DNA of 29,705 bases, filler included, from an uncultured virus (IMG/VR IMGVR_UViG_2061766007_000535) (lineage: Duplodnaviria; Heunggongvirae; Uroviricota; Caudoviricetes). It is 2 parts of one record of this genome, joined end to end, with 100 filler letters (N's around TTAATTAATTAA, not from the genome) between each part and the next. Parts side by side here need not be neighbours in the genome. Positions count along the whole stretch, not along the records: positions 7,157 to 29,705 come from IMGVR_UViG_2061766007_000535; 1 more part is not named here. The stretch is one strand, 5' to 3'. Position numbers and translations under genes: made by a program. This document shows positions 814 to 20,329 of this stretch, piece after piece. Each line of letters opens with the position of its first letter. Within the stretch, counting starts at the first letter, position 1. The notes beneath the pieces were generated by a model. It worked only from the letters and a program-made list of their open reading frames with translations, had not been told where the DNA came from and did not search any database.

Positions 814-815
814 CC

Positions 816-1634: not shown

Positions 1635-1636
1635 TA

Positions 1637-2816: not shown

Positions 2817-2828
2817 AGGAGAACCACC

Positions 2829-3053
2829 ATGTCCGAACACATCGCTGTCGCGAAGCACAACCACTTCTGCGACTTCTGCGGCGGGCTGATCCCGAAGGGG
2901 ACGAAATGCAGGATCATTCATGACGATTTCATGCCGAAGCTCGTCTACTTCGAACATCTGCACTGCCCGCCGTCGAAACCCGTGTTCGTCAGCTCCTCCA
3001 TCCCGAAGAAACCGATCAAACCCAAATTCACGCCCGCATTCTGCGTGTGCTAA
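2829..3053 (+). CDS. Small Cys/His-rich putative zinc-binding phage protein (74 aa)
   Basis: HFCDFC...EHLHC motif; RBS AAGGAG; conserved in three copies. Confidence 0.75.
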   Translation: MSEHIAVAKHNHFCDFCGGLIPKGTKCRIIHDDFMPKLVYFEHLHCPPSKPVFVSSSIPKKPIKPKFTPAFCVC

Positions 3054-3070
3054 ACGAAAGGATTATCATC

Positions 3071-3641
3071 ATGGCCACTCTCAATTTCAACGCCAACGAA
3101 GTCGAGCCCAGCAAAGCGTTCGATCCCATTCCCGCAGGAAAGTACATCGCCGTCATNNNNNNNNNNTATCATCAACTTCAACGCCAATGAAGTCGAACCC
3201 AGCAAAGCGTTCGACCCCATCCCCGCAGGGAAATACATCGCCGTCATCACGGACTCCGAGATGAAGGAAACCAGAGCCGGAACCGGCCGCTACCTCCAGC
3301 TCGAATTCGAGATCACGGACGGCGAGTATGCCGGACGCAAGCTTTGGTCGCGCCTGAACATCGAGAACCAGAACGCCGAGGCTGTCCGCCTGGCCCGTGC
3401 CGACCTCTCCGCCATCTGTCGTGCGGTCAACGTCCTCACGCCGAGCGACTCCATCGACCTCCACAACCTCCCGCTCGTCATCAAGGTTCACTGCCGGAAG
3501 GACAAGAACACCGGCGAGATCACCAACGACATCCGCGGGTACGAGTCCAAGGCGAACTACAAGCCGGAACCGAAACAGGCTCCCGCGACGCCGACGAACG
3601 CCCAGACCGCCAGAATTCCCAGCAAACCGCCGTGGATGTGA
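3071..3641 (+). CDS. DUF669-type phage ssDNA-binding-like protein (two allelic fragments across the gap at 3157-3166)
   Basis: FDPIPAGKY...YLQLEFEITDGEYAGRKLW...KPPW signature; follows the AAA_24 gene. Confidence 0.8.
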
Positions 3642-4009
3642 TGCCGGTCGAGCTCGAACTGCCGTGGCCGCCGAGTTTGAACCACTATTACCGGCACGTC
3701 GGTCCCCGCGTCCTCATCAGCCGCGATGGCCGTCGATACCGGGAAAGCGTGACGGCAATCACCCGGAGGACGGGGCATCCCATGTTCAGATGCCCCGTTC
3801 AAGTCGAACTGGACCTCTATCCGCCCGACAACCGCAGGCGCGACATCGACAATTCCCAGAAGAGCTTACTGGACGCGCTCACCTGCGCGGGCGTGTACGA
3901 AGATGACTCCCTCATCCATAAAATCACTGTCACCAAACGAGAACCCATGCCCCCGAACGGAATGGCATTCATAAGGATCATGGAATATGACAAAAATCGA
4001 CCGCCGTAA
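3641..4009 (+). CDS. rusA: RusA-family Holliday junction resolvase
   Basis: LPWPPSLNHYYR and PPDNRRRDIDN..KSLLDAL...DDS motifs; TGATG coupling to the DUF669 stop. Confidence 0.9.
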   Translation: MPVELELPWPPSLNHYYRHVGPRVLISRDGRRYRESVTAITRRTGHPMFRCPVQVELDLYPPDNRRRDIDNSQKSLLDALTCAGVYEDDSLIHKITVTKREPMPPNGMAFIRIMEYDKNRPP

Positions 4010-4063
4010 ACAAATTGAAGCCGTGCAGAACTTCTGCAAGAACCTGCCTGATGGCAAGGAATT
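3987..4063 (+). CDS. 72-aa HTH protein, 3'-truncated allele
   Basis: MTKIDRRKQIEAVQNFCKNLPDGKE matches 4082-4300 and 18348-18566; cut by a gap. Confidence 0.6.
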
Positions 4064-4081
4064 NNNNNNNNNNATCGGAAT

Positions 4082-4300
4082 ATGAAAAAAATCGACCGCT
4101 GCAAACAGATTGAGGCCGTGCAGCGTTTCTGCAAAGACCTGCCGGACGGAAAGGAATTCACCGTCTGCGTCCTTCTGATGAAGGGCATGAAGGAAAGCAA
4201 GGTCCGCAGGCGCATGCGCATGAAGCCGGATGCCTGGAAAGAACTCAAGGAACAGATTGCCGAGGGACTGAAGAAGGCCGGGGTACAGCTGAGGGACTGA
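4082..4300 (+). CDS. Small basic putative HTH (sigma region-4-like) protein
   Basis: 72 aa, sits between rusA and the helicase; pattern L..E..VC.LLM.G..E..V.R.M.M. Confidence 0.65.
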   Translation: MKKIDRCKQIEAVQRFCKDLPDGKEFTVCVLLMKGMKESKVRRRMRMKPDAWKELKEQIAEGLKKAGVQLRD

Positions 4301-4303
4301 AAA

Positions 4304-4607
4304 ATGAACTTGCGACCCTACCAACAGGAAGCGGTCGAGGCTGTGTATGAACATCTCCGCACGAAGAAAAACAATCCCTGCGTCGTGCTTCCCACGGGCA
4401 CGGGCAAAAGCCTTGTCCTGGCGCAGATCGCAAAAGACGCGGTGACGCTGTGGGGAGGCCGGGTGCTGATTCTTGCTCATGTGAAAGAGCTGCTGGAACA
4501 GAATGCGGACAAAACTCGCCGTCTCTGCCCCGACCTCCCCATCGGGATCTACTCCGCGGGACTGAACTCTCGGAACACGGACGAGCCGGTCATTGTGGCG
4601 GGCATCC
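4304..4607 (+). CDS. SF2 helicase N-terminal fragment (allele)
   Basis: MNLRPYQ Q-motif and LPTGTGKS Walker A; ends at a gap. Confidence 0.75.
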
Positions 4608-4640
4608 NNNNNNNNNNGTTTATAAGGATTTCTGAATACA

Positions 4641-4859
4641 ATGCAAAAACAAGATCTGCAAACTAGGAAGAAGATTGTCAACGACTGTCTTAACAACATC
4701 GAGGACCCGGAAATGCGCAGCGTATGTTTCATGTTGTATAAAAACTACAGTGAACATGATATTTCCAAACAACTGCACATGAGTAAAAAGAAGGTTCACA
4801 AGCTGATTGTGCGCTTCTCCGTTGACCTCCTTCTTGCGGGATTGAAACCGAGGTGGTGA
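4641..4859 (+). CDS. Divergent 72-aa HTH protein in the rusA-helicase slot
   Basis: Same length and position as 4082-4300 (preceded by the rusA tail FIRISEY); YSEHDISKQLHMSKKKV looks like an HTH; AT-rich. Confidence 0.7.
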   Translation: MQKQDLQTRKKIVNDCLNNIEDPEMRSVCFMLYKNYSEHDISKQLHMSKKKVHKLIVRFSVDLLLAGLKPRW

Positions 4860-4865
4860 TGCACA

Positions 4866-5908
4866 ATGAACTTGCGACCTTACCAACAGGAAGCGGTTGA
4901 GGCCGTATACAACCATCTCCGCGAAAAGAAAAACAACCCATGCGTCGTTCTCCCCACTGGGACGGGCAAGTCTCTGGTGATCGGACAGATCGCAAAGGAT
5001 GCCGTGACGCTATGGAACGGTCGCGTGCTCATTCTCGCTCATGTGAAGGAGCTCCTCGAGCAAAATGCCGACAAGATTCGGAAGCTCTGCCCGGAAGTCC
5101 CCATCGGAATCTTCTCTGCGGGGCTGAACTCCCGGAACACAGAGGAGCCGGTCATCGTGGCCGGGATTCAGAGCGTGTACAATAAGGCCGAGTTGCTGGG
5201 CAAATTCGACTTGATTATCGTCGATGAAGCACATCTCATTGCTCCGGACGGAGATGGAATGTACCGGACGTTCCTGCAGGACATGAAGTGCATCAATCCC
5301 CGCGTCCGGCTCATCGGACTGACGGCCACGCCGTTCCGACTGAAGGGCGGCCTCATCTGCAAGCCTGATAATCTGCTGAATGAAATCTGCTACGAAGCAG
5401 GCTTGAAGGAGATGATACAGCAGGGATACCTTTCCCCGCTCGTGTCCCGTGCCGGTCGCGCCGAAGCCGACCTCAGCAACCTGCACATCCGTGGCGGCGA
5501 GTTCATCGGCGATGAGATCGAGGCGGCGATGGATACGGAGCAGCTCGTCCTGTCTGCCTGCCGGGAGATCGTCGACCTGACACGAGATCGGAAATCCGTC
5601 CTGATATTCACCTCATCGGTGAAACACTGTCAGCACGTCGCCGAGGCAATCCGAGGGTACAGCGGGCAGGAATGTGCCGTCGTAACCGGCGATACTCCGG
5701 CTGGCGAACGTGCCGAAATCCTCGACCGCTTCAAGGGTAAACCCGTTCCTGCAGACCTGTTCGGGACGCCGAAGCCGCCGCTGAAGTTCCTGTGCAACGT
5801 GAACGTTTTGACGACCGGCTTTGACGCCGTGAACACGGACTGCATCGTTCTGCTCCGGCCGACGAACTCGGCGGGCTTGCTGATCCAGATGGTCGGACGC
5901 GGAACACG
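4866..5908 (+). CDS. SF2 DEAH helicase (RadD/YejH-like), N-terminal part
   Basis: PTGTGKS, IIVDEAH, GLTATP, LTTGFD, QMVGRGTR; truncated by a gap. Confidence 0.9.
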
Positions 5909-5948
5909 NNNNNNNNNNCTGTTTTCCTTCCGTTGAGGGGTTATTGTT

Positions 5949-6401
5949 TTAATCGTGATGAACGCCAACTTTTAGCATTCCGTCGAGTTTGCGATGGCAT
6001 ATTCGGCATAGCCAATACACTTTCAGTGGCTGAGAATAATCCGGGTGATGCATCTCCAGATTGTCCGTTCCTCCACAGAAATAACATTCTGTTCCGCGAG
6101 GGATTCTCCCGTCGCGGATAGCATTGCCCGCTGCAGTACGGGCTTTGTACTTTTCAGGTTCCATTTCTTTTTGTCTTCTCCATGTCGCTTTGCGCAGAAC
6201 AATCCTATGCGGTTGTGTTGTACGGTTTCGGTCATAAGCTCGATAATAGTCTGCCTTTCGCCGTCTGTTTTGCAAAGCATCTGAACGGCAACATTCTTTG
6301 CACTTGTTAAGATGACCATCCGCCATTTGAGGATGTATGTAAAACTCGGAAAGAGGACGTATCTGTCCACATTTGAAACACGTTTTATCCATGTTTTGCA
6401 C
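5949..6401 (-). CDS. Phage HNH endonuclease-like protein with N-terminal zinc finger
   Basis: N-terminal CxxC...CxxC; C-terminal CYFCG...MHHPDY...WLCRICH HNH-type core. Starts 1 bp after the helicase stop on the same strand. Confidence 0.8.
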   Translation of the reverse strand: MQNMDKTCFKCGQIRPLSEFYIHPQMADGHLNKCKECCRSDALQNRRRKADYYRAYDRNRTTQPHRIVLRKATWRRQKEMEPEKYKARTAAGNAIRDGRIPRGTECYFCGGTDNLEMHHPDYSQPLKVYWLCRICHRKLDGMLKVGVHHD

Positions 6402-6402
6402 C

Positions 6403-7056
6403 TCAGAACGGAATTTCTGACGGATCGAAGTCTTCGACGTGGAGATCGCCGGACATCACGACCTCCGCAGTGTCGTCGCCCGGCTCGCGTTCGGGACGCT
6501 CGCCAAGCTCATATCTCGTTATGGTTTCGAACTTCTCGCCCGCGGTCGAGCGGACGGTGATTCTCTTCGGCTCAGCGAGGATGCCGGAGCTTGCCAGTCG
6601 GACAGCCTCAGCGGCACTGTGCGGCACGGGACACCATTCCGGCGCCCGCTCCTTCCACCACTTGACGAACTTGGACCGTGCGTACCCGGAGTGTTCCGGG
6701 CAGACCCATTCGGACTTGTACGTCTGAAATGCCACCTCATAGTCGACCCGCATCGTGCTCGGCGTATCGTCCGGCGCATACCGTTTCCTGTGGACTGCAT
6801 AGAATGTGCGCCGCACCTCGTATTCGTCGAAGAACACCTCGCCGGAGATGATGCCGTCGTGGGCGGCATGAGCCGTAAGGTCCGAGTGCTGCGACGGAGG
6901 GAATTCGTATCCGCATTCCGGGCATTTCGCGTATGCCGCGTGGATCAGGGCGTAACATTCCGGGCATTTCTTTGCCGGAGCCTCGCCGTTGCCGGGAGTC
7001 TTGTCTTTCACGCGGATCATGTCCACGGGACCGTGGCGCATGATGTTCCCGCCGTA
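6403..7056 (-). CDS. SF2 helicase C-terminal part (zinc ribbon and acidic tail) on a probably mis-oriented contig
   Basis: YGGNIMRHGP...CPEC...CPECG...EIPF; nearly identical to the 3' third of 18569-20311. Confidence 0.85.
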   Translation of the reverse strand, partial: YGGNIMRHGPVDMIRVKDKTPGNGEAPAKKCPECYALIHAAYAKCPECGYEFPPSQHSDLTAHAAHDGIISGEVFFDEYEVRRTFYAVHRKRYAPDDTPSTMRVDYEVAFQTYKSEWVCPEHSGYARSKFVKWWKERAPEWCPVPHSAAEAVRLASSGILAEPKRITVRSTAGEKFETITRYELGERPEREPGDDTAEVVMSGDLHVEDFDPSEIPF

Positions 7057-7156
7057 NNNNNNNNNNNNNNNNNNNNNNNNNNNNNNNNNNNNNNNNNNNN
7101 TTAATTAATTAANNNNNNNNNNNNNNNNNNNNNNNNNNNNNNNNNNNNNNNNNNNN
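7057..7156. other. Artificial scaffold linker N44-TTAATTAATTAA-N44
   Basis: Exactly 100 bp, with a six-frame stop 12-mer at 7101-7112. Confidence 0.97.
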
Positions 7157-7421: not shown

Positions 7422-7431
7422 NNNNNNNNNN

Positions 7432-7686
7432 TCCCAGGTTCGGGATTGTGCCGCCTTCAGGGAGTTCTGCGATCTGTTTCTCCCAGCTTTCCCTCTGCTT
7501 CCGTTCTTTCTCGGTCTGCGCCTCAGCAGGCGGGAGCAGACGCTTCGGCCGCGTCGCACCGAACCGCTGTTGCAGAACAGCGGCGGGGAATGGTTCGACC
7601 TCGGCGAAGAACACCGCCTTCCAGCCGAGCGGTCCCCAGGCAAGGGTCGCGGCCTCCACGCCGCTGCATACGCTTCCATAGTTCAT
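7432..7686 (-). CDS. DNA cytosine-C5 methyltransferase, N-terminal fragment
   Basis: MNYGSVCSGVEAATLAW...FFAEVEPFPAAVL...PNLG matches motifs I-III of phage-type C5 MTases; RBS AAGGAG; truncated by the gap at 7422-7431. Confidence 0.8.
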
Positions 7687-7768
7687 AATTTATAAAGACT
7701 CCTTCGAAAAGACATGTTATGGACAGCAGAGAGGCCCTGTCCCGAAAAACAGCGGGAAACAAGTTCTC

Positions 7769-7815
7769 CCTACCAATATTATTTCAGAAATTCGGCTAAG
7801 TGGACGGTATAAAAC
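7769..7815 (-). promoter_or_regulatory. 47-bp conserved motif, left copy (putative promoter of the leftward operon)
   Basis: Reverse complement GTTTTATACCGTCCACTTAGCCGAATTTCTGAAATAATATTGGTAGG is 42/47 identical, ungapped, to 11530-11576; A-tracts lie upstream. Confidence 0.65.
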
Positions 7816-7904
7816 TGGTGTTTTTTCGTTTTTTTTTGGATTTTTTCTTTAAACTGACATTCCTTGGCAGTGTACCGTGCTACATTATAGGAGAAACACG
7901 ATAA

Positions 7905-7932
7905 CGGATGATGCGGAATCACGGAGATTCCG
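7905..7932. promoter_or_regulatory. Palindromic operator-like site, copy 1
   Basis: CGGATGATGCGGAATCACGGAGATTCCG, 26/28 identical to 8068-8095. Confidence 0.6.
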
Positions 7933-8067
7933 ACCCGAAACGAAGAACATAACAACGGAGAGACTACACGATGTTCCGGAAAAATACCGTTTTTTCGGAT
8001 ACCCCCGGAGCTAACTGACGTTAGATGGCAAATAGACAGTGTATAGTAAAATCGGAGACCATACAAT

Positions 8068-8097
8068 CGGATGACGCGGAATCTCGGAGATTCCGCG
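8068..8097. promoter_or_regulatory. Palindromic operator-like site, copy 2
   Basis: Perfect palindrome CGCGGAATCTC-G-GAGATTCCGCG at 8075-8097, about 65 bp upstream of the 763-aa gene. Confidence 0.6.
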
Positions 8098-8161
8098 GAG
8101 TCTCCCGCCGCTTCGTCGCGGTTCGAATTGACGCATCACTTAAATTCGAAAGAAGAAAAAA

Positions 8162-10453
8162 ATGGCTACCTATGACACAATTTCTTTAATCAAGCATCTT
8201 CAACCTCTGACCATCGAAAAGCTCTTCGCCCCTATCAGCAAGCTCCTCGAACAGCCTACCGATGAATATCCGAACATTGAATTTCATCATCTGCTCGAAG
8301 ATATTGATGAACTTGGGCGACGCTGGCACATTTGCCTCAGCATCGAACATACGCCGAAAGAAGCAGGCCTCATTTCGAAAATCCATGACGCTCTTCAGTC
8401 TTTCCAAACCATACGCGATTCATCGTGCGATGGCATTCAAATCGCGAAACGCCTTTCGGAAACTGAAGAGAGCATGAATCTCGACGAAGACTTCGGGAAA
8501 TGGAACCGATATGAACAGGCTGCATATATTTATCTTTCGAACAAGAAGTTCTGGGATAAATGGTCGAATCTTGTCATTATCAGCGACTGCAGCCGGAAGA
8601 AGACTTGCATCAAGTATCCCAATCTTCCTTTGAAGATGCCGACGCAAAAGAAGTCGGACCTGAAGGCAATGGAGACGGTCGCAGTTGATTTTTTCAGGCT
8701 CATCAAGGGCAGTCGAAGCTGCAATATCCAAACTTACAGGCTTGGTCCGAACTACCATTATTTCGCGACGCTTCAGGAGAAACCCATTGTTCTGGAGATC
8801 GACAACCCGGAAAAGGACAAGTTTGAGCCGACCCGTGTCGTTCTGCCTTACCGTTTCGTTTTTTCGTTCAACGAGGAAGAGGGTGTGTTCTCCCTCTATG
8901 GCGTGGATGGTGTTTCCGACAGCAACACCCTGGCGTCTTTGCTCCTGAAGGTGCTGATCGGATATAATGGTGAATTGCTGCGGGAACCGAAACCTATCTA
9001 CAATCTCTCCCCCCTGAAGGACAGGAGCTTTCTGTTCGACATCGACGGATCGGATGGAATCGAGGACGTGATTTTCAAAAGCGTAACAGTACGTCCGATT
9101 GATGACCCAAAAAGTCAGATTACATTCTGTAACGGTGAAGACGGAGTATTTCACTGCATTGACAGGTATCTTGATGAAAAAGAACTGAAAATGGAGAACA
9201 TCGAATTCGTCCGCGCTGTTGTTCTTTTCAGGATGCGCCCAGAGTTCACAGCGTTTCGCCAGGCAACTTTTGATCTGAGTCTGACTGGTGACAACCTCTC
9301 CGAAAAGACTGATGCTCAAGCAAAACTGTTGAGGAAGTATATTCGGAGATGGAAGCTTCGCCTTGCCGGGGAACAGCTCAACACGACCTTGATCACGGAA
9401 CTCATCAAGTTTTCGTCCGGGGAAAAACCGATTATGAGCTACCAGTACAGGGAAATGCTGCCGAGTGCAGTGCGTTACGGCCTGATGGAATGGGGGTTTC
9501 TGAAGCGGACGCAAAATGCGGCATCCATACAAATCGGAGACTCCGCATTCAAAGTCGAATACTTTCAGAAGGCAAGCGGTGACGACCTTGCGCCTGTCGT
9601 GATCGGACAGAACGGAGATGTTGAAGAAATTGAAGATGAAGACATTGAACGATATCTTGTTGATTACTCTGCGTTGGCCGCACTTTTGCATGATGAACTG
9701 GAATGCAGAGGTCAGGCCAGAATGGAGCTGGACAATAAGGTCTGGTGGCTCGGAACCAAAGGGCAAGAAGGCCGGAACATATACTTTGTTCGCAACTGGC
9801 ACGGATTTCAGGATGTCCGCAATTTCCTCAGAGGTGTCAAGGACAGTTCTATCGTCATTTATATTGGCGACAGGCCGGAACATATTCGCATTGGGAACCG
9901 ATCTTCGGAAACGCCCGGCGCAGCATCCGACCTCCAGAATCAGTATTACGACATCAATGGGCTTGTAGAGTATTCCGATACTCAGGGATTCTTTGTTTCC
10001 GCTGAACCCATTTGGGAGAATCTCAAGACCATGTACGCCAGACGTCCCGTCAAACGGCGTGTCAAGGCTCCAGGCAAACAGGATCAAATACAGGAGGCTG
10101 TCGAAAGCTATGTCTGGCAGCATGGGATTGCGCTTGTCGATCTGATCAAGAGAAACATTGAGGGCGATGATCTGAATGAAACTGAAACGAAATGCCTGAC
10201 AGCCGTTTTCGGTTATACCAACAGGGATTTCTGCAAGAAGGTTTCCATTGAAGACTATCAGCTTTCCCGCGTAAAGGAGAAATGGGATGATTCGAAGGAA
10301 TGTCCCTTTGGCGTCATATACAAGGAACTGTTCAATATCCTTATCCCGCCGCAAAAGGATCGGTTCAATATCCTTGAAGCAAGGGAAGAGCGCGTCTCCT
10401 TCCTTCATAACTATTACCCTGAACTGCTCCGAAAGCTCCGCGACATTCGCTAA
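8162..10453 (+). CDS. Large hypothetical protein (763 aa), possibly with a C-terminal HTH
   Basis: Long gap-free ORF with a purine-rich RBS, followed by a terminator; more AT-rich than the replication genes; no recognisable catalytic motif. Confidence 0.85.
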   Translation: MATYDTISLIKHLQPLTIEKLFAPISKLLEQPTDEYPNIEFHHLLEDIDELGRRWHICLSIEHTPKEAGLISKIHDALQSFQTIRDSSCDGIQIAKRLSETEESMNLDEDFGKWNRYEQAAYIYLSNKKFWDKWSNLVIISDCSRKKTCIKYPNLPLKMPTQKKSDLKAMETVAVDFFRLIKGSRSCNIQTYRLGPNYHYFATLQEKPIVLEIDNPEKDKFEPTRVVLPYRFVFSFNEEEGVFSLYGVDGVSDSNTLASLLLKVLIGYNGELLREPKPIYNLSPLKDRSFLFDIDGSDGIEDVIFKSVTVRPIDDPKSQITFCNGEDGVFHCIDRYLDEKELKMENIEFVRAVVLFRMRPEFTAFRQATFDLSLTGDNLSEKTDAQAKLLRKYIRRWKLRLAGEQLNTTLITELIKFSSGEKPIMSYQYREMLPSAVRYGLMEWGFLKRTQNAASIQIGDSAFKVEYFQKASGDDLAPVVIGQNGDVEEIEDEDIERYLVDYSALAALLHDELECRGQARMELDNKVWWLGTKGQEGRNIYFVRNWHGFQDVRNFLRGVKDSSIVIYIGDRPEHIRIGNRSSETPGAASDLQNQYYDINGLVEYSDTQGFFVSAEPIWENLKTMYARRPVKRRVKAPGKQDQIQEAVESYVWQHGIALVDLIKRNIEGDDLNETETKCLTAVFGYTNRDFCKKVSIEDYQLSRVKEKWDDSKECPFGVIYKELFNILIPPQKDRFNILEAREERVSFLHNYYPELLRKLRDIR

Positions 10454-10522
10454 GGACTCAATCGTTTTTGTGATTTAACAATGGCGCCAGACGGCGCGTT
10501 TGTAAGTCACTGTCAAGGGTTG

Positions 10523-10558
10523 CCCCGCACTGGCAGATTTGCTGGTTGCGGGGTTTTT
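10523..10558 (+). terminator. Probable intrinsic terminator after the 763-aa gene
   Basis: CCCCGCA...TGCGGGG stem followed by TTTTT. Confidence 0.6.
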
Positions 10559-10800
10559 CGTCTATCGACATCACGAAACGAATGCATGAAAAGAAGCAAT
10601 GCGGCTTCTTTCTTGCAGAATTGCAGCAAACGTCCGATTTGCAAGACGCAAAAACAAAAATATTCATTTATATCTCGCTGACTGTTATATAGTTGCACAA
10701 GGATAAACCTTGCAACGAACGAAAATTTTTGCAATTCCGCACTGGGTGTTCACCCGGAAATAATCCGGCAAGGAAACCAAACGAACCCAAGAGGTGCGCA

Positions 10801-11466
10801 ATGCAAAACACAATCAAGAAGGCTGCGGCCGCTCCAGCCCGCATCGGGATTCCCTCCGATGAGGAAATCTACACATCCCCCGAAATCAACCGCATGATCA
10901 GCGTTGCGGGGAACCGTCTCATCTCGTCCGGTCTCTTCCCTCCCTGGAGCCGCGAAGACGAGGAAGAGGATCTGAAACTGAAGCTTCTCGAAAAGATTCA
11001 CGAAAGCAACTTTGACCCGAAGAAGGGAGATTTCAATGCTTTCGCCGGGGCCATTATCAGACGTCTTGCCGGTCTCCGAATTTATGAAGCTCGGAAAAAG
11101 GCCTTTGCCGATGGGCATATCTGGTCTGATGACATTTCCCTGGATTCACCGGAAGGAGAGAAACTGAAGGTCATTGATTGTTTGGTTGATGACCATGATT
11201 ACTCCGCAGAAGAACGGCATGCCAGGCTCGAACGCATTGAGAAGGTTCACAAGGTCCTGGAAACCATGCCGGAAGAGTATCGCTATGTTTGGAAACGCCT
11301 CTGCGAGGGAGTGTCCCAGCGCCAACTCGCAAAGGAATTGGGATACAAGTCACATGCCGGATTTCAGCAGAAATACATGTGGCGCTTCAAGGCTGAATTC
11401 GTCAAAGCGGGAATCCGCCGGATAGAAACGAAAGGAGGGGGTGCAAGACAGAAAACTGTTGAATAA
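10801..11466 (+). CDS. Sigma-70 family (ECF/group 3-4-like) RNA polymerase sigma factor
   Basis: Region-2-like EDEEEDLKLKLLE...FDPKKGDFNAFAGAIIR; ISLD linker; region-4 LETMPEEYRYVW...GVSQRQLAKELG; RBS GAGGT before the ATG at 10801. Confidence 0.8.
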   Translation: MQNTIKKAAAAPARIGIPSDEEIYTSPEINRMISVAGNRLISSGLFPPWSREDEEEDLKLKLLEKIHESNFDPKKGDFNAFAGAIIRRLAGLRIYEARKKAFADGHIWSDDISLDSPEGEKLKVIDCLVDDHDYSAEERHARLERIEKVHKVLETMPEEYRYVWKRLCEGVSQRQLAKELGYKSHAGFQQKYMWRFKAEFVKAGIRRIETKGGGARQKTVE

Positions 11467-11529
11467 CCATCCCGCTTCAAAAAAACGTGAACAACAAAAA
11501 AAATCAAAAAAAGTTATCCCAAAAGCCAG

Positions 11530-11576
11530 GTTTTATACCGTCCACATCGACGATTTTCTGAAATAATACTGGTAGG
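11530..11576 (+). promoter_or_regulatory. 47-bp conserved motif, right copy (putative promoter of the replication operon)
   Basis: GTTTTATACCGTCCACATCGACGATTTTCTGAAATAATACTGGTAGG, 31 bp before the ATG at 11608 and preceded by A-tracts. Confidence 0.65.
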
Positions 11577-11607
11577 AACAAGTCACTTCAACCGAAAGAA
11601 AAACACC

Positions 11608-12408
11608 ATGACAAACTTCATCATCCACGAACCCGCCAACGAATACCACGAACGCAGCCGCAACGGTGAATACATGTCGAGCCACCTTCTGGCCGACTTC
11701 CGCGAAAGTCCTGCCCTGTACTACAAAGAAATAACGGGACAGATCGAACAGAAAGAGTCCGCGGCTTTCACCCTTGGTCGTGCCGCCCACAGCCTGATCC
11801 TCGAAGGCCGCCACGTTTTCGAACACGATTTTGTGGTCTGCAACGGCCCCGTCAATCCCCGGACTGGCGAACCCTTCGGCAAGACCACCAAGGCCTATGC
11901 GGACTGGCTGGCGGAACAGGACCGCGAAGTCATTTCCGAGAAGGACTTCGGTTTCATCATGAAGCTCCAGGCGGCCGTCAGCATCCACCCCGAAGCCCTG
12001 AAACTTCTCGCGAAAGGCGAGGCTGAGGGCGTTGTTCGGGCCTGCTGTTGTGGTGTCCCCTGCCAGATCAGGATGGATTGGTTCAACCCGGAATTCGGCC
12101 TCGTTGACCTCAAGACCTGCGACAGCCTGCGCTGGTTCGAGTCCGACTGCCGCCGCTACGGCTACATCCACCAGATGGCATTCTACCGCATGGTCCTCCG
12201 CGCCGTTTCCGGCACGACCTTCCCGGTCTACATGATCGCGGTCGAGAAGAACGAGCCGTTTTCGGCTGGCGTCTGGAAGCTCACGGATGAAGTCCTCGAC
12301 CTCGCCGAGAACACGAACAAGGCGGCGTTGAACCGCTACCGCGAGTGCGACAACTCCGGCATATGGCCCACCGGCTTCGAAGAAATCCGCATTATCGACA
12401 CCCTCTAA
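11608..12408 (+). CDS. PD-(D/E)XK exonuclease, RecE/exonuclease VIII-like (DUF3799-type)
   Basis: EYH...MSSH.L...LGRAAHSLILE...IRMDW...VDLKT...YGYIHQMAFY. Confidence 0.88.
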   Translation: MTNFIIHEPANEYHERSRNGEYMSSHLLADFRESPALYYKEITGQIEQKESAAFTLGRAAHSLILEGRHVFEHDFVVCNGPVNPRTGEPFGKTTKAYADWLAEQDREVISEKDFGFIMKLQAAVSIHPEALKLLAKGEAEGVVRACCCGVPCQIRMDWFNPEFGLVDLKTCDSLRWFESDCRRYGYIHQMAFYRMVLRAVSGTTFPVYMIAVEKNEPFSAGVWKLTDEVLDLAENTNKAALNRYRECDNSGIWPTGFEEIRIIDTL

Positions 12409-12441
12409 TTCCATTCCATAACAACACACAGGAGAAACATC

Positions 12442-13641
12442 ATGAACAAAACCGCTACCCCCAAAATCATCGTCAAGCTCGTTGAAGTCACTCCCGACAT
12501 GGCCTGCGAAATGCTTGAGAAGAACACCATGAACCGGAACATCGACCAGAAGCGTGTCGACCAGTATGCTCAGGACATGAGATGCGGACGCTGGCAGATG
12601 AACGGCACGACCATCGTCTTTGCCGATGACGGAACGCTCCTTGACGGTCAGCACCGTCTCTGGGCTGTTGTCGAAGCCAAGGTTTCTGTTCAGCTCCTCA
12701 TCGTCTACAATGCAGACAAAGACAGCATCGTCACGTTCGACATCGGCAAGACCCGCACGGCCAGTAACATCATGCAGATCGAACGTTCGGCGCATTCCGT
12801 CACCGCAGCAACGCTGACGAAGCTTCTCTGGCTCCACGATTTCGTTGACTGCAACCTCTCCCCAAAAACCTGCCAGAGGGACGTCAGCAACAACGACCTC
12901 CGCGAGTTCTACAACGAACGCAAGGACATGATNNNNNNNNNNTGCCTACTGCGTCATCGGCAGAAACACCGCCTACCGCTACAAGCTGAAAGCCTTCTTC
13001 GATACGCTCAAGACCGGCTCCGATATCGGNNNNNNNNNNTTCCGTCACCGCCGCGACCCTGACGAAGCTCCTCTGGCTCCACGATTTCGTTGACAGCAAC
13101 CTCGCCCCCAAAACCTGTCAGAGGGATGTCAGCAACAACGACCTCCGCGAGTTCTACAACGAACGCAAGGACATGATCGAACTGGCCGCCGACGTTGCCG
13201 AACACGGCGGACACCACTTTGTGAAGTCCCACATGGCGCTCGCCTACTGCGTCATCGGCAAGAACACCGCCTATCGCTACAAGCTGAAAGCCTTCTTCGA
13301 CACGCTCAAAACCGGCTCCGATATCGGCATGAAACACCCGATTATGACACTCCGCAACAGACTGTTTGAAAATCGCCTTGGCGTCCGGTCCCTCTCCGTT
13401 CAGGAAACCCTCGCCGCCTACATCCGCGTCTGGAACGCCTACGTCCGCGGNNNNNNNNNNAATGAAACACCCGATCATGACTCTTCGCAACAGACTGTTT
13501 GAAAACCGCCTTGGCGTCCGGTCTCTTTCCGTCCAGGAAACCCTTGCCGCCTACATCCGTGTCTGGAACGCCTATGTCCGCGGCAACGACCTGAGCGTCA
13601 TCCGCTGGAACGCAACCGAACCGATGCCTGAGGTGCTCTGA
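12442..13641 (+). CDS. Phage ParB/Srx-like protein with DGQHR motif, in four overlapping allelic fragments
   Basis: VTP..A..ML..N..NR...YA.DM..G.W..NG..I.F...G.LLDGQHRL.A; ends PMPEVL with stop at 13641, coupled to the ParB-1 start. Confidence 0.75.
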
Positions 13642-13757
13642 TGGACAACACCACTGAGAAATTCGACGATTTCCTTTTCNNNNNNNNNNCTTCCTCCAGG
13701 CGTATGGAAACTCCGTTGCGCCCGCTGTGGACGCGGCCTCATAAAAGGAGATTCACC

Positions 13758-13982
13758 ATGTCCGACCATATCGCTGTCGCGAAGCACAACCACTTCTGCG
13801 ACTTCTGCGGCGGGCTGATCCCGAAGGGGACGAAATGCAGGATCATTCACGACGACTTCATGCCGAAGCTCGTGTACTTCGAACATCTGCACTGCCCGCC
13901 GCCCAGAGCCGTATCCGCCGAAACCATCAACCCGAAGAAACCCGTCAAAACCAACTTCAAGCCCGCAGTCTGCTGCGGCTGA
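13758..13982 (+). CDS. Small Cys/His-rich protein (allele)
   Basis: Homologue of 2829-3053. Confidence 0.75.
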   Translation: MSDHIAVAKHNHFCDFCGGLIPKGTKCRIIHDDFMPKLVYFEHLHCPPPRAVSAETINPKKPVKTNFKPAVCCG

Positions 13983-13999
13983 CAGAAAGGAATAACATC

Positions 14000-14476
14000 A
14001 TGGCCATCCTCAATTTCAATGCCAACGAAGTCGAACCGAGCAAAGCGTTCGATCCCATCCCCGCAGGGAAATACATCGCCGTCATCACCGACTCCGAAAT
14101 GAAAGACACCCGTGCCGGAACCGGACGCTACCTTCAGCTCGAATTCGAGATCACAGACGGCGAGTTCGCCGGACGCAAGGTCTGGGCTCGCCTGAACATC
14201 GAAAACAGAAATCCCGAAGCCGTCCGCATGGCCCGCGCCGACCTGTCCGCCATCTGCCGTGCAGTCAACGTCCTCACCCCCGGCGATTCCGCCGACCTCC
14301 ACAACCTCCCGCTCGTCATCAAGGTCCACGTCAGGAAGGATAAGAACACCGGCGAGATCTCCAACGAAATCCGCGGGTACGAAAGCAAGGCCGCGTTCAA
14401 GCCGGAACCGAAACAGGCCGTGGCTCCGGTCTCCTCCCAGACCGCGCGTGTCCCCGCGAAGCCGCCGTGGATGTGA
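14000..14476 (+). CDS. DUF669-type SSB-like protein (complete allele)
   Basis: MAILNFNANEVEP...KPPWM; followed by a rusA start fragment at 14476-14564. Confidence 0.82.
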   Translation: MAILNFNANEVEPSKAFDPIPAGKYIAVITDSEMKDTRAGTGRYLQLEFEITDGEFAGRKVWARLNIENRNPEAVRMARADLSAICRAVNVLTPGDSADLHNLPLVIKVHVRKDKNTGEISNEIRGYESKAAFKPEPKQAVAPVSSQTARVPAKPPWM

Positions 14477-14759
14477 TGGCGGTCGAACTTGAACTGCCGT
14501 GGCCGCCAAGCCTAAACCACTATTACCGGCACGTCGGTCCCCGCGTCCTCATCAGCCGCGATGGNNNNNNNNNNACGACCTGGAGCATGTCATGGCCAGC
14601 ATGAAGGCTAAAGGTTACGACAACGGACACCCGATCATCCTGTGGGAAGGACATGATCTGACGGTCATTGACGGGCATACCCGTCTTGCCGCCGCCCAGA
14701 AGCTTCTGTTCGCCAGAATCCCCGTAATCCTTAAGAAGTTCAAGGACGANNNNNNNNNN

Positions 14760-15585
14760 GGACAACACCACTGAGAAACTCGACGATTTCCTTTTCGTCA
14801 CGCAAGACCCCACCACGATGGCAAATCCGCTGGAAATCAAAACAGCCTCTCCGTTCAAGGATCTGTTCCCCGTCAAGCAGAACGACCTGGAGCGCGTCAT
14901 GACCAGTATGAAAGCCAAAGGGTACGACAACGGACACCCGATCATCTTGTGGGAAGGACACAATATGACGGTCGTTGATGGGCATACCCGTCTGGCCGCC
15001 GCACAAAAGCTTCTGTTCGCCAGAATCCCCGTGATCCTTAAGAAATTCAAGGACGAGGCCGAAGCTCTGGAATACGCCATCGAATCGCAGGTCAATCGCA
15101 GGAATCTGACAGATGCCGAACTGCTCAAATGCCTGACGGAACTCGACAAAAGGAAGAAAACGGGACCGGCAAAGAGTTTAGCCTCACGTGAGGCTAAACT
15201 CGGAAAGAGCGCCGAAGAGACGGCGTCCATCCTCGGTGTCTCCCGCGCGAAAGTCGAGCGCCTCCGCACCGTCAACGACCACGCATCGGACGAGATCAAG
15301 GACGCCGTCAAGGACGGAAAGCTATCCCTCAACAAAGCGTACAAGGCGACAATGGACGCGCGACACGCGGAAGAATGTTCCGATGAGGCCGATCCCGTCG
15401 ACACCAAAGCAGACCGGCTGCTTGCCCTGGAAAACAGCTACTGCTGCGCCCTGACCGCGCGAACCGACCGCGAGTTGAAGCAGTACCCGGAAATCCGGTA
15501 TTCCGCAAAGGAACTCGCTGCTCTCAGGAAAAAAATTGTCGAAAAGCTCGACGCAGAACTCAACAGATTCAGAGGAAACAACTGA
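14760..15585 (+). CDS. ParB-like paralogue 1 (start codon lost in the gap; an allele fragment lies at 14575-14749)
   Basis: VVDGHTRLAAA; orthologue of 1-813. Confidence 0.85.
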
Positions 15586-15587
15586 CT

Positions 15588-16406
15588 ATGGCAAACCGCG
15601 AAATCGATAAGACCGAATCCATCTTCAAGGAAATGGATTACACCTCCACGCTTGTGAACACCGATAGCCTCCGCACTGCGGCTCCCTTCAAAAACCTCTT
15701 CCCGATCCGCGAAGATATCCTTAGCAAAATCACCGAGGATATGAAGCAGCACGGCTTCGACAGGGCTCATCCGATTGCCGTGTGGTCGGGACATAACCTG
15801 ACGGTGGTCGACGGACACACCCGGCTTCTCGCCGCTATCAAGCTCGGCTTTCCGCAGATCCCAGTTGTCCTCAAAAAGTTCGCCAATGAGGAAAAGGCTC
15901 TGGAGTACGCCATTGATTCGCAGGCCAACCGCCGGAACCTGACCGATGCCGAACTCATGAAATGTCTTTCTCTTCTCGACCGCCGCAGGAAGGCCGGACG
16001 TCCCAGAACGGGCGACCCCACTCCGGGAAGAAGCGCCGAAAGAACAGCCATGCTCCTCGGAACCTCACGGGGGACGGTCGAGAAGATTCGCTCGATCCTG
16101 GATCACGCGCCGGAGGAAATCAAGGAAGCCATCAGGTCCGGCAACCTCACCATCAACAAGGCGTATGTCATCACGATGGGGAAACGGAAAATCAGCAAAT
16201 GCCGGGATGAAGATGAACTCCGGGCTGCGATGGCGGCCGAACTGAAAAAGAACCTCAGCAAGGCATTCCGAGACTGCATCGCAGAACTCAAAAAGAAGTA
16301 TCCCGGCATCCTGCCGACCAAAGAGCAAGCTGCAGAAGTGCTGAAAGTAGCCTGCGCAACACTCAAAACCGAGCTTGATAAGCTCACACAGAAAGGAAAG
16401 AAGTGA
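15588..16406 (+). CDS. ParB-like paralogue 2
   Basis: Orthologue of 816-1634, also 272 aa. Confidence 0.85.
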   Translation: MANREIDKTESIFKEMDYTSTLVNTDSLRTAAPFKNLFPIREDILSKITEDMKQHGFDRAHPIAVWSGHNLTVVDGHTRLLAAIKLGFPQIPVVLKKFANEEKALEYAIDSQANRRNLTDAELMKCLSLLDRRRKAGRPRTGDPTPGRSAERTAMLLGTSRGTVEKIRSILDHAPEEIKEAIRSGNLTINKAYVITMGKRKISKCRDEDELRAAMAAELKKNLSKAFRDCIAELKKKYPGILPTKEQAAEVLKVACATLKTELDKLTQKGKK

Positions 16407-16492
16407 GAATGGGAAAATAAGTTCACCTAAGACAGCATCATAGTTTCAGAAAAAGTGTTCAGAAAAGAGTTCATAATGAAAGGAAAAGGAAA

Positions 16493-17263: not shown

Positions 17264-17274
17264 GGAGATTCGAA

Positions 17275-17499: not shown

Positions 17500-17525
17500 A
17501 CAACAAACCGAAAGGACTATTCACT

Positions 17526-18566: not shown

Positions 18567-18568
18567 CA

Positions 18569-20311: not shown

Positions 20312-20329
20312 GCAGAAAGGAAAAAGAAC

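What the first reader, a model, noticed from the sequence alone, without database searches (positions are those of the whole stretch)
7769..11576. Outward-facing 47-bp inverted motif brackets a sigma factor and a 763-aa unknown gene: candidate self-contained transcriptional switch
Seen: on one gap-free contig (7432-12932), the reverse complement of 7769-7815 and 11530-11576 are 42/47 identical with no gaps. Both have long A-tracts upstream, and each lies shortly before the first ATG of a divergent operon (C5 methyltransferase leftward; exonuclease-ParB-replication rightward). Four of the five mismatches fall in the centre, between the conserved blocks TTTTATACCGTCCAC and TTTCTGAAATAATA, as expected for -35/spacer/-10. 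The motif does not resemble the TTGC-N17-TATATT housekeeping promoters elsewhere in the window. Inference: these are cognate promoters for the element's own sigma factor (10801-11466), which would switch on self-methylation and replication together. An alternative is recombination sites of a 3.8-kb invertible cassette.
Basis: partly seen in the sequence, partly recalled or inferred. Interest (0 to 1): 0.8.

Follow-up and report, generated by a model that had tools for sequence, protein, structure and literature searches.

The report
Swappable phage sigma-factor cassette with twin promoters
Two matching outward-facing control sequences flank a phage's own sigma-factor gene and sit just ahead of its head-assembly and DNA-replication operons, and related phages have swapped the whole unit (sigma gene plus both sequences) for different versions, which suggests a self-contained, exchangeable gene switch.

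Summary
Revcomp(7769-7815) matches 11530-11576 at 42/47. Four of the five mismatches lie in a 9-nt spacer between two invariant blocks.

The window is a gapped phage pseudo-molecule. The left arm sits 82 nt before a C5-methyltransferase gene, which in intact relatives is followed by portal and protease/head genes. The right arm sits 31 nt before an exonuclease-ParB-Sak4-SSB-RusA-helicase-primase operon.

ORF 10801-11466 is a divergent two-domain ECF-like sigma factor. It has no Pfam hit, but TIGR02937 gives E 2e-8, and relatives and predicted fold agree.

The 763-aa protein has no assignable function. It is a fusion of two genes that are separate in sister phages.

New here: four sister phage lineages keep the same methyltransferase and exonuclease genes (about 87-92% protein identity). 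Between the two start codons each carries an unrelated cassette with its own sigma (17-39% identity) and its own long inverted repeat in the same two positions. Arms match within a lineage and not between lineages.

So a cassette-encoded factor most likely reads the arms, and the sigma is the best candidate (about 0.6). This is inferred, because no transcription starts could be mapped. No evidence supports inversion. Verdict: new variant of a known kind.

The parts
7432..7686 (-). N-terminal 85 codons of a C5 cytosine DNA methyltransferase. It is the first gene of the leftward operon and is cut by the N-gap at 7422-7431.
   Evidence: phrog_116 and phrog_363. The intact ortholog is 680 aa in L010 and 647 aa in L004, with PF00145 at E 2e-32. 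It is followed by a lambda-type portal and a protease/major head gene.
7769..7815 (-). Left arm: putative outward (leftward) promoter. On the minus strand, block A is 7814-7800, the 9-nt spacer 7799-7791, block B 7790-7777, then TTGGTAGG. The inferred start is near 7770-7765.
   Evidence: 42/47 match to the right arm. The blocks are invariant in L002, L004, L010, L021 and L022. There is no dyad symmetry beyond shuffles. The transcription start is inferred, not mapped.
7816..8161 (+). Non-coding leader before the 763-aa gene. It begins with a T-rich tract (an A-run on the minus strand, upstream of the left arm). Two tandem units of about 160 nt follow (7846-8008, 8009-8165), each with a GGAATC/GATTCC hairpin.
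   Evidence: It is conserved with indels in L004, so it is non-coding. No Rfam family matched. The same unit occurs twice in L036 beside a WYL regulator gene.
8162..10453 (+). 763-aa protein of unknown function. It is a fusion of a ~420-aa part (phrog_37634-like) and a ~320-aa part, which are separate adjacent genes in sister cassettes.
   Evidence: No Pfam, PHROG or PDB sequence hit. Only 6 homologs were found. It co-occurs with the sigma gene in every window-type record that spans both genes (L002, L004, L010). BLASTP links residues ~110-400 to the 394-442-aa proteins and ~470-640 to the 318-320-aa proteins of L039-L043. The model is low confidence (pLDDT 61). Residues 72-284 resemble a CENP-N / TBP-like fold at Z 8.3.
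10522..10559 (+). Terminator-like hairpin with a U-run between the 763-aa gene and the sigma gene.
   Evidence: Fold of -23.3 kcal/mol, z -3.15.
10801..11466 (+). Divergent two-domain (sigma2 + sigma4) ECF-like sigma factor, 221 aa, with AAGAGG 6 nt before the ATG.
   Evidence: TIGR02937 at E 2.2e-8, 33.9 bits, below the curated 42.9. No Pfam hit. 23 of 29 distant profile hits carry Sigma70_r2 or Sigma70_r4. Foldseek and VIA-align top rows are sigma factors.
11530..11576 (+). Right arm: putative outward (rightward) promoter. Block A is 11531-11545, the spacer 11546-11554, block B 11555-11568, then CTGGTAGG. The inferred start is near 11575-11579. A-runs lie upstream at 11484-11529.
   Evidence: Homology to sister phages begins only at the exonuclease ATG, so the arm belongs to the cassette.
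11608..12408 (+). PD-(D/E)XK exonuclease (DUF3799, exonuclease VIII-like), the first gene of the rightward operon.
   Evidence: PF12684 at E 8e-33 and phrog_412 at E 1e-46.
12442..12932 (+). ParB-like protein (phrog_5931), cut by an N-gap. In the intact relative L010 the operon continues with two ParB genes, Sak4, SSB, RusA and a helicase. Matching window ORFs, and primase pieces, lie at 14818-24683.

Best explanation
The two 47-bp arms are a matched pair of outward-facing promoters. They belong to a replaceable regulatory cassette of a phage found in ruminant-gut metagenome runs. The cassette (about 7687-11607) sits between two conserved genes, the C5 methyltransferase (leftward) and the exonuclease (rightward).

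The cassette holds the fused 763-aa protein and an ECF-like sigma factor on the plus strand. Both arms and both 5' untranslated regions belong to it.

Proposed mechanism. Shown: the gene identities, the positions and the co-replacement. Inferred: every transcription step.
1. Host RNA polymerase transcribes the 763-aa gene and, after a terminator-like hairpin, the sigma gene. Each has its own upstream region, and neither carries the arm motif.
2. The phage sigma then binds host core polymerase. It reads block A (about -46 to -32) with its sigma4 domain and block B (about -22 to -9) with its sigma2 domain.
3. Transcription fires leftward into methyltransferase-portal-protease/head and rightward into exonuclease-ParB-Sak4-SSB-RusA-helicase-primase. 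One protein therefore turns on both main lytic operons.

In sister lineages the same slot holds other cassettes. Each has its own sigma, its own arm pair and, in some, a CI-like (S24) or WYL regulator. This makes the unit resemble a lambdoid immunity module built around a sigma factor.
For: (1) Repeat and layout. The match is 42/47, with two invariant blocks about 23 bp apart centre to centre.

(2) Constraint. Between the window type and L004 (sigma 89% identical), 0 of 74 block positions differ. By contrast 8 of 18 spacer positions and 13 of 80 flank positions differ (Fisher p 5e-7 and 2e-4).

(3) Directionality. The arms have no dyad symmetry beyond shuffles. Both lie 31-82 nt before first-gene start codons.

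(4) The sigma is real.
- TIGR02937 gives E 2.2e-8.
- A profile search returned 141 hits. Of the 29 scanned, 22 have Sigma70_r2 at E<=1e-3 (13 above Pfam's cut-off) and 1 has Sigma70_r4.
- In the structure model, residues 16-108 fit ECF sigma2 (Z 8.6, rmsd 2.4 A, 78 aligned).
- Residues 140-210 fit sigmaE region 4 bound to -35 DNA (Z 7.9).
- The Foldseek list is dominated by sigma chains, best E 4e-3.

(5) Natural swap.
- In L039, L040, L041 and L043 the right arm of a 67-89-nt inverted repeat lies directly before the exonuclease ATG. The left arm lies directly before the methyltransferase ATG.
- DNA homology to the window type (through L010) stops at those two start codons.
- Arm-to-arm local alignment scores are 40-60 within a lineage and 6-18 between cassette types. 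Shuffles average 8.5 with a maximum of 17.
- Every one of these cassettes has a sigma-like ORF as its last gene.
- The repressor-type gene differs: S24 in L039 and L040, WYL in L041 and L043, none detected in the window type.

(6) Copy number. Exactly two copies per record were found in G002, G003, G006 (98.5 kb, rated 100% complete), G007 and G008.

(7) Partial sharing of motifs. Lineages with related sigmas share part of the upstream motif. L039 and L040 (39% identical) share TTTAAA.CCTAAAATT. L041 and L043 (31%) share GCACAAAAA.
Against: No transcription start was mapped. Only assembled contigs of RNA libraries were available.

The sigma, both arms and every other cassette gene are physically linked.

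The ~420-aa (phrog_37634-like) protein is present in all five cassette types and is an equally universal candidate.

A similar A/T-rich ...ATAC(T/C) element lies at the -10 position in four or five cassette types whose sigmas are only 17-25% identical. The window arm also reads as a near extended -10 (TG-N-AATAAT). A host primary sigma could therefore read the -10 part.

In L039 and L040 the shared upstream motif lies about 29 nt from the -10-like hexamer, too far for a -35 element (my reading).

The sigma2 and sigma4 halves are equally diverged (23.6% and 22.0%), so there is no domain-specific signal.

The window sigma scores below the curated cut-offs of TIGR02937 and has no Pfam hit.

L036 and L032 have a sigma upstream of the exonuclease but no arm pair.
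Confidence: 0.6

Rival explanations
1. PL/PR-type promoters read by the host's own sigma factor. The type-specific conserved block is the binding site of a cassette-encoded regulator: the 763-aa protein here, and a CI-like or WYL protein in sister cassettes. The phage sigma serves other promoters elsewhere.
For: The layout copies the lambdoid immunity region: regulator genes between divergent outward promoters, exchanged as a module (my recollection of lambda; the module exchange is shown). Sister cassettes carry S24 CI-like repressors or WYL regulators next to the left arm. A common -10-like ATAC(T/C), and a TG-N-AATAAT near-extended -10 in the window arm, could serve a host primary sigma. 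L040's arm has a 14-bp near-palindrome over the -10-like element (CTGAGTATACTTAG; my reading).
Against: The window-type cassette has no recognisable repressor. No HTH, S24 or WYL hit was found for any ORF of 7432-12932 that was scanned. The window arms lack dyad symmetry. Repressor families differ between cassette types, while a sigma is present in all five. No other copy of the arm motif, and so no other target for the sigma, was found in about 30 kb of window, in the 15.8-kb and 15.7-kb records G002 and G003, or (for the L039 type) in a 98.5-kb record rated complete.
Confidence: 0.27
2. Recombination sites of an invertible 3.8-kb segment.
For: Inverted repeats of 47-89 nt bracket a 3.7-5.7-kb segment in five lineages.
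Against: All 8 records that hold both arms have the sigma next to the exonuclease and none has it next to the methyltransferase. These are the window, G002, G003, L010, L039, L040, L041 and L043. Contigs of an independent DNA run cross both arms in the reference orientation (7682-8342 and 11105-11593), and no strand-change joint was listed. Contigs do drop rare variants. No recombinase family was found in any of the five inverted-repeat-flanked cassettes. L046, which has no such repeat, carries a serine recombinase upstream of its sigma gene. Inversion would also uncouple both operons from the sequences just before their start codons.
Confidence: 0.04
3. Terminal inverted repeats of a mobile element (transposon-like cassette) that inserted between the methyltransferase and exonuclease genes.
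For: Inverted repeats lie at both ends of a segment with lower G+C (0.475-0.485 over 8001-11000) than most of the surrounding window (0.55-0.60 over 12001-23000). The content between the repeats differs between lineages.
Against: No transposase or integrase family was found in the window cassette. Five different cassettes occupy the same slot, and homology breaks exactly at the two start codons. This fits replacement by recombination in the conserved flanking genes rather than independent insertions. The arm sequences differ between types, so no common end sequence exists. I did not see target-site duplications, but I looked only by eye.
Confidence: 0.04

Closest known systems
Phage phiEco32 gp36 (divergent sigma) with its co-factor gp79
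   Same: Both are phage-encoded, two-domain, distant sigma homologs (N-terminal domain like sigma2, C-terminal like sigma4). gp36 redirects host core RNA polymerase to phage middle and late promoters, and it works with a partner protein of no known family (passages of PMC12276001 read). The gp79-dependent open complex 9m7y_F appears in the fold list at Z 5.9.
   Different: phiEco32 has many gp36 promoters with a short -10-centred consensus (AATGTA, per the paper). Here there are exactly two long bipartite sites, both flanking the sigma's own cassette. No sequence relationship to gp36 or gp79 was shown. A partner role for the 763-aa protein is only suggested by conserved synteny.
Lambdoid immunity region (PL/OL - rexB rexA cI - OR/PR), exchanged as a module between heteroimmune phages
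   Same: Regulator genes are bracketed by two similar outward-facing control regions that drive the two main early operons. The whole block, control sites included, is swapped between otherwise similar phages (swap shown; the lambda facts are recalled, not from a call). Sister cassettes contain CI-like S24 repressors.
   Different: The universal cassette gene here is a sigma factor, a positive specificity factor, and not a repressor/Cro pair. The window-type cassette has no recognisable repressor, and its arms have no dyad-symmetric operators. The left operon leads into head genes.
Bacillus subtilis PBSX Xre / Xpf
   Same: [quoted passage not shown] That the repressor Xre holds it off is recalled. 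This resembles the L039 and L040 cassettes, which combine an S24 repressor with a sigma.
   Different: No homology was tested. As far as I recall, the PBSX arrangement is not a twin inverted promoter pair around the sigma gene.
Sigma cascades of lytic phages (T4 gp55, SPO1 gp28 and gp33/34) and late activators of the RinA/ArpU type
   Same: A phage-encoded sigma or sigma-like activator is placed near its target operon and times gene expression (recalled; a survey of phage sigma factors is in PMC9429907, passages read).
   Different: Those systems act on many promoters or on one late operon. None is known to me as a swappable unit of one sigma plus two divergent cognate promoters.

Membership tests
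Sigma-70 family, ECF-like (two-domain) sigma factor - for ORF 10801-11466 | Significant sequence match to a curated sigma-70 / ECF profile | tested here: inconclusive
   TIGR02937 gives E 2.2e-8 at 33.9 bits over residues 51-183, below the curated cut-off of 42.9. Pfam gives no hit even at E 10. The sister ORFs of L041, L043, L035, L032 and L052 pass the cut-off at 46.5-55.7 bits. The family profile A1 finds those ORFs at E 4e-11 to 3e-5.
Sigma-70 family, ECF-like (two-domain) sigma factor - for ORF 10801-11466 | Sigma2 and sigma4 domains joined by a linker, without region 1.1 or region 3 | tested here: met
   The AlphaFold model (pLDDT 69.5) has two helical domains (20-103 and 136-202) and a disordered linker. 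VIA-align fits 16-108 to ECF sigma2 (5uxx_C Z 8.6; 4nqw_A Z 8.3). It fits 136-212 to sigma4 (3mzy_A Z 8.4; 2h27_D Z 7.9). Foldseek's best row is 6dv9_F at E 4e-3, and no row reaches E<=1e-3. The Z values are in the range the tool calls middling. The weight comes from nearly all top rows being sigma factors.
Sigma-70 family, ECF-like (two-domain) sigma factor - for ORF 10801-11466 | Binds core RNA polymerase and confers promoter-specific initiation | not testable with these tools
The host and its polymerase are unknown.
Sigma-dependent bipartite promoter - for the two arms | Two conserved elements at -35/-10-like spacing, a variable spacer, and directionality | tested here: met
   The blocks are 15 and 14 nt with a fixed 9-nt variable spacer. 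0 of 74 block positions differ between lineages, against 8 of 18 spacer positions. No dyad symmetry was found. Both arms point at the adjacent start codons.
Sigma-dependent bipartite promoter - for the two arms | Transcription start a few nt downstream, dependent on the cognate sigma | not testable with these tools
   Only Logan contigs of RNA libraries were available, and the 'many molecules begin or end' table was empty.
Sigma-dependent bipartite promoter - for the two arms | Promoter sequence co-varies with the sigma across relatives | tested here: inconclusive
   Five cassette types each have their own sigma and their own arm pair. Related sigmas share part of the motif. But the sigma and the arms are linked, so co-inheritance is not excluded. 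DNA around the 48-56% identical sigma relatives could not be fetched.
Lambdoid-type immunity module | Regulator genes between two similar outward promoters, exchanged as a unit between related phages | tested here: met
Lambdoid-type immunity module | Repressor gene in the cassette and dyad-symmetric operators in both arms | tested here: not met
   In the window type, no repressor family was found by Pfam or PHROGs, and the arms have no dyad symmetry beyond shuffles. The repressor part is met in L039 and L040 (S24).
Invertible DNA segment (Hin/Gin-type or similar) | Site-specific recombinase gene in or next to the segment | tested here: not met
   No recombinase family was found in the ORFs of 7432-12932 or in the cassettes of L039-L043. 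The only weak row was PF10136 at E 0.14 on the sigma ORF.
Invertible DNA segment (Hin/Gin-type or similar) | Both orientations present in populations | tested here: not met
   0 of 8 records with both arms are inverted. Contigs of DNA run X11 cross both arms in the reference orientation with no strand-change joint. Contigs cannot exclude a rare form.

The most novel reading that the evidence does not exclude
A family of phages from ruminant-gut metagenomes carries, at one fixed slot between the methyltransferase/head operon and the replication operon, interchangeable 'sigma immunity' cassettes. Each cassette encodes an orthogonal ECF-like sigma, exactly two cognate divergent promoters and two conserved partner proteins of unknown fold (fused into one 763-aa protein here). 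Those partners would gate the sigma, for example as a new kind of anti-sigma, sensor or co-factor. Cassette identity would then set which phages can cross-activate or cross-silence each other. That is heteroimmunity built on positive control by sigma factors rather than on repressors.
Probability: 0.35. Interest if true: 0.75.

Novelty: new variant of a known kind. Interest (0 to 1): 0.55.

Why it matters
Phage sigma factors and swappable lambdoid immunity modules are each well known. I did not find a description of a module that joins them: one sigma gene plus exactly two matched divergent promoters, moving together, with five mutually unrelated versions in the same slot. The one search aimed at this returned no paper, and my searches were few.

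If the sigma reads the arms, nature has supplied a ready set of orthogonal sigma/promoter pairs with minimal promoter sets. That is useful for understanding how lytic programmes are wired and re-wired by recombination, and for building orthogonal expression switches.

It would also give the ORFan 763-aa protein and its ~420-aa and ~320-aa relatives a testable role as sigma partners.

If the arms are instead host-sigma promoters with operators, the region is an ordinary immunity region with an unusual passenger sigma.

Tried and rejected
(1) Pfam on the sigma ORF and the 763-aa ORF gave nothing. PDB sequence profiles gave only 3hug_A at E 0.61 for the sigma and nothing for the 763-aa protein.

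(2) Rfam on 7432-12932 at E<=1 gave no family.

(3) A search for distant carriers of the motif found 17 loci in a viral-collection scan with ACCGTCCAC-N8-10-TTTCTGAAA. Eight belong to this phage type. Nine are unrelated sequences with no similarity outside the pattern, which I judged chance matches.

(4) I tried to fetch DNA around the 48-56% identical sigma relatives (P0006-P0008, P0010).
- Viral, genome and metagenome scans with the alignment gave only the same close type, or unrelated weak hits.
- tblastn in the phage collection gave no match.
- A scan with P0007 alone gave none.
- Cluster look-up gave no accessions or names.
So covariation within the window's own sigma clade could not be tested.

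(5) megablast of 7432-12932 against GenBank phages gave no match.

(6) Reads. All four runs laid were Logan contigs.
- RNA-library contigs cover bits of the 763-aa gene, the sigma gene and the exonuclease gene.
- One 243-nt contig spans 7753-7995.
- This shows neither transcription nor 5' ends.
- Parts without cover mean nothing.

(7) ESM Atlas for the 763-aa protein: best score 0.83, unnamed clusters, no lead.

(8) The 763-aa fold is low confidence. The weak Foldseek rows for RdgC, RnlA and lambda RexA (E 6.5e-3 to 0.15) and the CENP-N-like match at Z 8.3 are leads only.

(9) sigma2 versus sigma4 divergence across types was 23.6% against 22.0%, with no difference that would tell which promoter half varies with which domain.

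(10) L036 and L032 have a sigma upstream of the exonuclease but no arm pair. A 25-nt core from L036 occurs once in its 19.8-kb record.

(12) Earlier-findings look-ups by place and by sequence returned nothing.

(13) The leftward 5'UTR (7690-7770, minus strand) folds no better than shuffles, z 0.03.

Full report
**What the window is**

The 29.7-kb window is a pseudo-molecule. It has 10-N gaps throughout and a 44N-TTAATTAATTAA-44N contig spacer at 7057-7156. The stretch 7432-12932 is gap-free. Its own assembly is not held, and the nearest held record is a 10-kb viral contig.

The gene content is that of a tailed phage. To the right of the finding lie:
- a DUF3799 / exonuclease VIII-like nuclease (11608-12408)
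- a phrog_5931 ParB-like protein
- SSB
- two ParB-like proteins
- Sak4
- SSB
- RusA
- a helicase
- primase pieces

A second, related copy of the ParB-Sak4-SSB-RusA-helicase module lies on another scaffold at 52-5933.

Near-identical DNA is held by 14 DNA runs at half or more of the sampled words. Where a label is given, the runs are labelled bovine, sheep or unspecified gut metagenomes. In all, 20 rows from 12 studies hold some of it.

**The observation**

Revcomp(7769-7815) and 11530-11576 agree at 42 of 47 positions. Four mismatches are in a 9-nt centre, and one follows the second block.

The pattern TTTTATACCGTCCAC-N9-TTTCTGAAATAATA occurs twice in the window at up to 3 mismatches, and no shuffle gave two matches. 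Twenty shuffles of the contig gave at best 32 of 47 for any inverted 47-mer. A looser scan found no weaker third copy.

Both arms have A-runs upstream, which extends the repeat to 86 nt at 73%. The left arm ends 82 nt before the ATG at 7686 (minus strand). The right arm ends 31 nt before the ATG at 11608.

**The flanking operons**

The ORF at 7432-7686 (minus strand) is the N-terminus of a DNA methyltransferase, cut by a gap (phrog_116 and phrog_363). In the intact relatives L004 and L010 it is a 647-680-aa C5 methyltransferase (PF00145, E 2e-32). It is followed on the same strand by a lambda-family portal and a protease/major-head gene. The leftward operon therefore leads into head assembly, not only methylation.

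**The sigma factor**

Pfam finds nothing in 10801-11466, even at E 10. The protein family is small, with 9 hits among 5.8 billion clusters.

Several independent lines identify it as a sigma factor.
- Profile search: a profile of 7 members against 1.84 billion representatives gave 141 hits at E<=1e-3, mostly full-length proteins of 180-220 aa.
- Pfam on distant hits: I scanned 29 of the best-ranked distant ones. 22 have Sigma70_r2 at E<=1e-3 (13 above Pfam's cut-off), one has Sigma70_r4, and 6 have neither.
- Curated model: NCBIfam's TIGR02937 (sigma70-ECF) matches the window protein at E 2.2e-8, but at 33.9 bits it is below the curated 42.9.
- Structure model: the AlphaFold model (pLDDT 69.5) has two helical domains joined by a disordered linker.
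- Foldseek: the 48 listed rows are led by ECF sigma-RNAP initiation complexes (6dv9_F, E 4e-3), and none reaches E<=1e-3.
- Independent all-against-all aligner: it fits residues 16-108 to ECF sigma2 (Z 8.6, rmsd 2.4 A over 78 residues). It fits 140-210 to sigmaE region 4 bound to -35 DNA (Z 7.9).

I accept it as a divergent, two-domain ECF-like sigma factor.

**The 763-aa protein**

It has no Pfam, PHROG or PDB sequence match. It has six homologs down to 47% identity. It accompanies the sigma gene in every window-type record that spans both genes.

BLASTP shows that residues ~110-400 are related to the 394-442-aa proteins of sister cassettes (phrog_37634, function unknown). Residues ~470-640 are related to the 318-320-aa proteins encoded just downstream of those. 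The window gene is therefore a fusion of two neighbouring genes.

The structure model is weak (pLDDT 61). Residues 72-284 resemble the CENP-N N-terminal / TBP-like arrangement at Z 8.3, which is a lead only.

A terminator-like hairpin with a U-run (10522-10559, z -3.15) separates this gene from the sigma gene. The sigma gene has its own 240-nt upstream region and an AAGAGG ribosome-binding site.

**Constraint on the arms**

Both arms are present, in the same places and orientation, in the close relatives G002 (L002), G003 (L004) and L010, with exactly two copies per record.

Between the window type and L004 (sigma 89% identical) the counts of changed positions are:

| Region | Changed | Positions compared |
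|---|---|---|
| Blocks | 0 | 74 |
| Spacer | 8 | 18 |
| Ungapped flanks | 13 | 80 |

Fisher p is 5e-7 for blocks against spacer and 2e-4 for blocks against flanks. The arm-specific T/C difference is kept in both lineages.

The arms have no internal dyad symmetry beyond shuffles. That argues against a classical dimeric operator and for a directional site.

The block centres are about 23 bp apart. If the -10 is AATACT (11565-11570), block A covers about -46 to -32 and block B about -22 to -9. This placement is my inference.

**The decisive comparative result**

A search with the exonuclease found 27 viral loci. In L039, L040, L041 and L043 the exonuclease is 87-89% identical to the window's. The methyltransferase is 87-92% identical in L039, L040 and L041. 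L043's locus holds only the methyltransferase start.

DNA homology to the window type, measured through its intact relative L010, stops at the methyltransferase ATG on one side. It resumes at the exonuclease ATG on the other.

Between those points each lineage has a different cassette of 4.2-5.9 kb. Each cassette has its own long inverted repeat:

| Lineage | Repeat length | Complementarity |
|---|---|---|
| L039 | 76 nt | 89% |
| L040 | 68 nt | 82% |
| L041 | 67 nt | 88% |
| L043 | 89 nt | 74% |

In each, the right arm lies directly before the exonuclease start and the left arm directly before the methyltransferase start.

Local alignment scores between the two arms of one lineage are 40-60. 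Between arms of different cassette types they are 6-18, which is the level of shuffled arms (mean 8.5, maximum 17).

Each cassette ends with a sigma-like ORF. All match TIGR02937 at E 4.6e-14 to 4e-4 and PHROG sigma families. They are only 17-39% identical between types.

The other regulators differ. L039 and L040 have a CI-like S24 repressor, L041 and L043 have a WYL-WCX protein, and none is detectable in the window type.

The arm cores occur exactly twice in the records of L039 (98.5 kb, rated 100% complete), L041 and L043.

Types with related sigmas share part of the upstream motif. L039 and L040 share TTTAAA.CCTAAAATT. L041 and L043 share GCACAAAAA.

**Interpretation**

The arms are not a private oddity of this phage. 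They are part of a replaceable regulatory module whose two ends always match each other and change together with the cassette. A cassette-encoded factor most likely reads them.

The sigma is the natural candidate. It is a promoter-recognition protein, it is present in all five types, and it has no other detectable target. I put this at about 0.6.

The caveats are real.
- All cassette parts are linked, so covariation cannot separate the sigma from the equally universal ~420-aa protein.
- A similar ATAC(T/C) element at the -10 position in most types, and a near extended -10 in the window arm, would suit a host primary sigma helped or blocked by a cassette regulator. That is the lambda-like rival, at about 0.27.
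- In L039 and L040 the shared upstream motif is too far from the -10-like element to be a -35.
- The sigma2 and sigma4 halves are equally diverged.
- L036 and L032 have a sigma upstream of the exonuclease but no arm pair.

**Inversion and transposition**

All 8 records with both arms have the same orientation. An independent DNA run's contigs cross both arms in that orientation with no strand-change joint, although contigs miss rare forms. No recombinase or transposase family was found in the five inverted-repeat-flanked cassettes.

Five cassettes in one slot, with homology breaks exactly at the start codons, point to exchange by recombination in the conserved flanking genes.

**Comparison with known systems**

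- phiEco32 gp36/gp79 is the closest in mechanism. It is a distant two-domain phage sigma with a partner of no known family, but it serves many promoters with a short -10-centred consensus (passages of PMC12276001).
- The lambdoid immunity region is closest in layout and in module exchange, but it is built on a repressor (recalled).
- PBSX Xpf is a sigma-like lytic switch (passages of PMC4243946; the role of Xre is recalled).
- A survey of phage sigma factors was read in passages only (PMC9429907).
- A search for prophage + ECF sigma factor + late genes + repressor + divergent promoters (at least 4 of 5 terms) returned no paper. My searches were few, so the claim of novelty is modest.

**Verdict**

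The inversion alternative is not supported. The finding is a new variant of a known kind, with an interest score of 0.55.

Noticed in passing
window 1-7056 versus 14818-20308: The window holds two related copies of the ParB-ParB-Sak4-SSB-RusA-helicase module on different scaffolds of a pseudo-molecule. The scaffolds are joined by a contig spacer at 7057-7156 (44N-TTAATTAATTAA-44N). So at least two related phages or strains are concatenated here.
   Followed up: partly
window 7846-8165; L036 2335-2632: The leader before the 763-aa gene consists of two tandem ~160-nt units. Each begins AACTGAC(A/G)TT..GGCA and holds a GGAATC/GATTCC hairpin (the second has z -3.7). The same unit occurs twice, in the opposite orientation, next to a WYL regulator gene in the otherwise different cassette of L036. 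It may be a shared operator, promoter or small-RNA unit. No Rfam family matched.
   Followed up: partly
window 8162-10453; L040 2237-4418; L041 2654-4931: The 763-aa ORFan is a fusion of two genes (~420 aa phrog_37634-like and ~320 aa) that are adjacent but separate in sister cassettes and always lie upstream of the sigma gene. The conserved synteny suggests a functional link with the sigma.
   Followed up: partly
window 10610-10745: Six TTGCA words lie in the 240 nt upstream of the sigma gene, after a terminator-like hairpin at 10522-10559. This could be the sigma gene's own promoter/operator region.
   Followed up: no
window 27385-28044 (minus strand): A 220-aa ORF matches phage transcriptional-repressor families (phrog_2104, phrog_2328, phrog_3). 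It lies on a lower-G+C, heavily gapped part of the pseudo-molecule. Whether it belongs to the same phage is unknown.
   Followed up: no
L036 254-2188, L032 762-2624, L046 402-2212: Other cassette variants upstream of the same exonuclease carry an AAA_21/AAA_15 ABC-type ATPase (Abi-like) with a WYL regulator, or a serine recombinase with DUF2924. So this slot also collects defence-like and integration genes.
   Followed up: no
L039 (record G006, 98.5 kb): This record is rated 100% complete although the relatives suggest a genome of roughly 55 kb (15.8 kb is rated 28% complete). It may include host flanks and could reveal the host.
   Followed up: no
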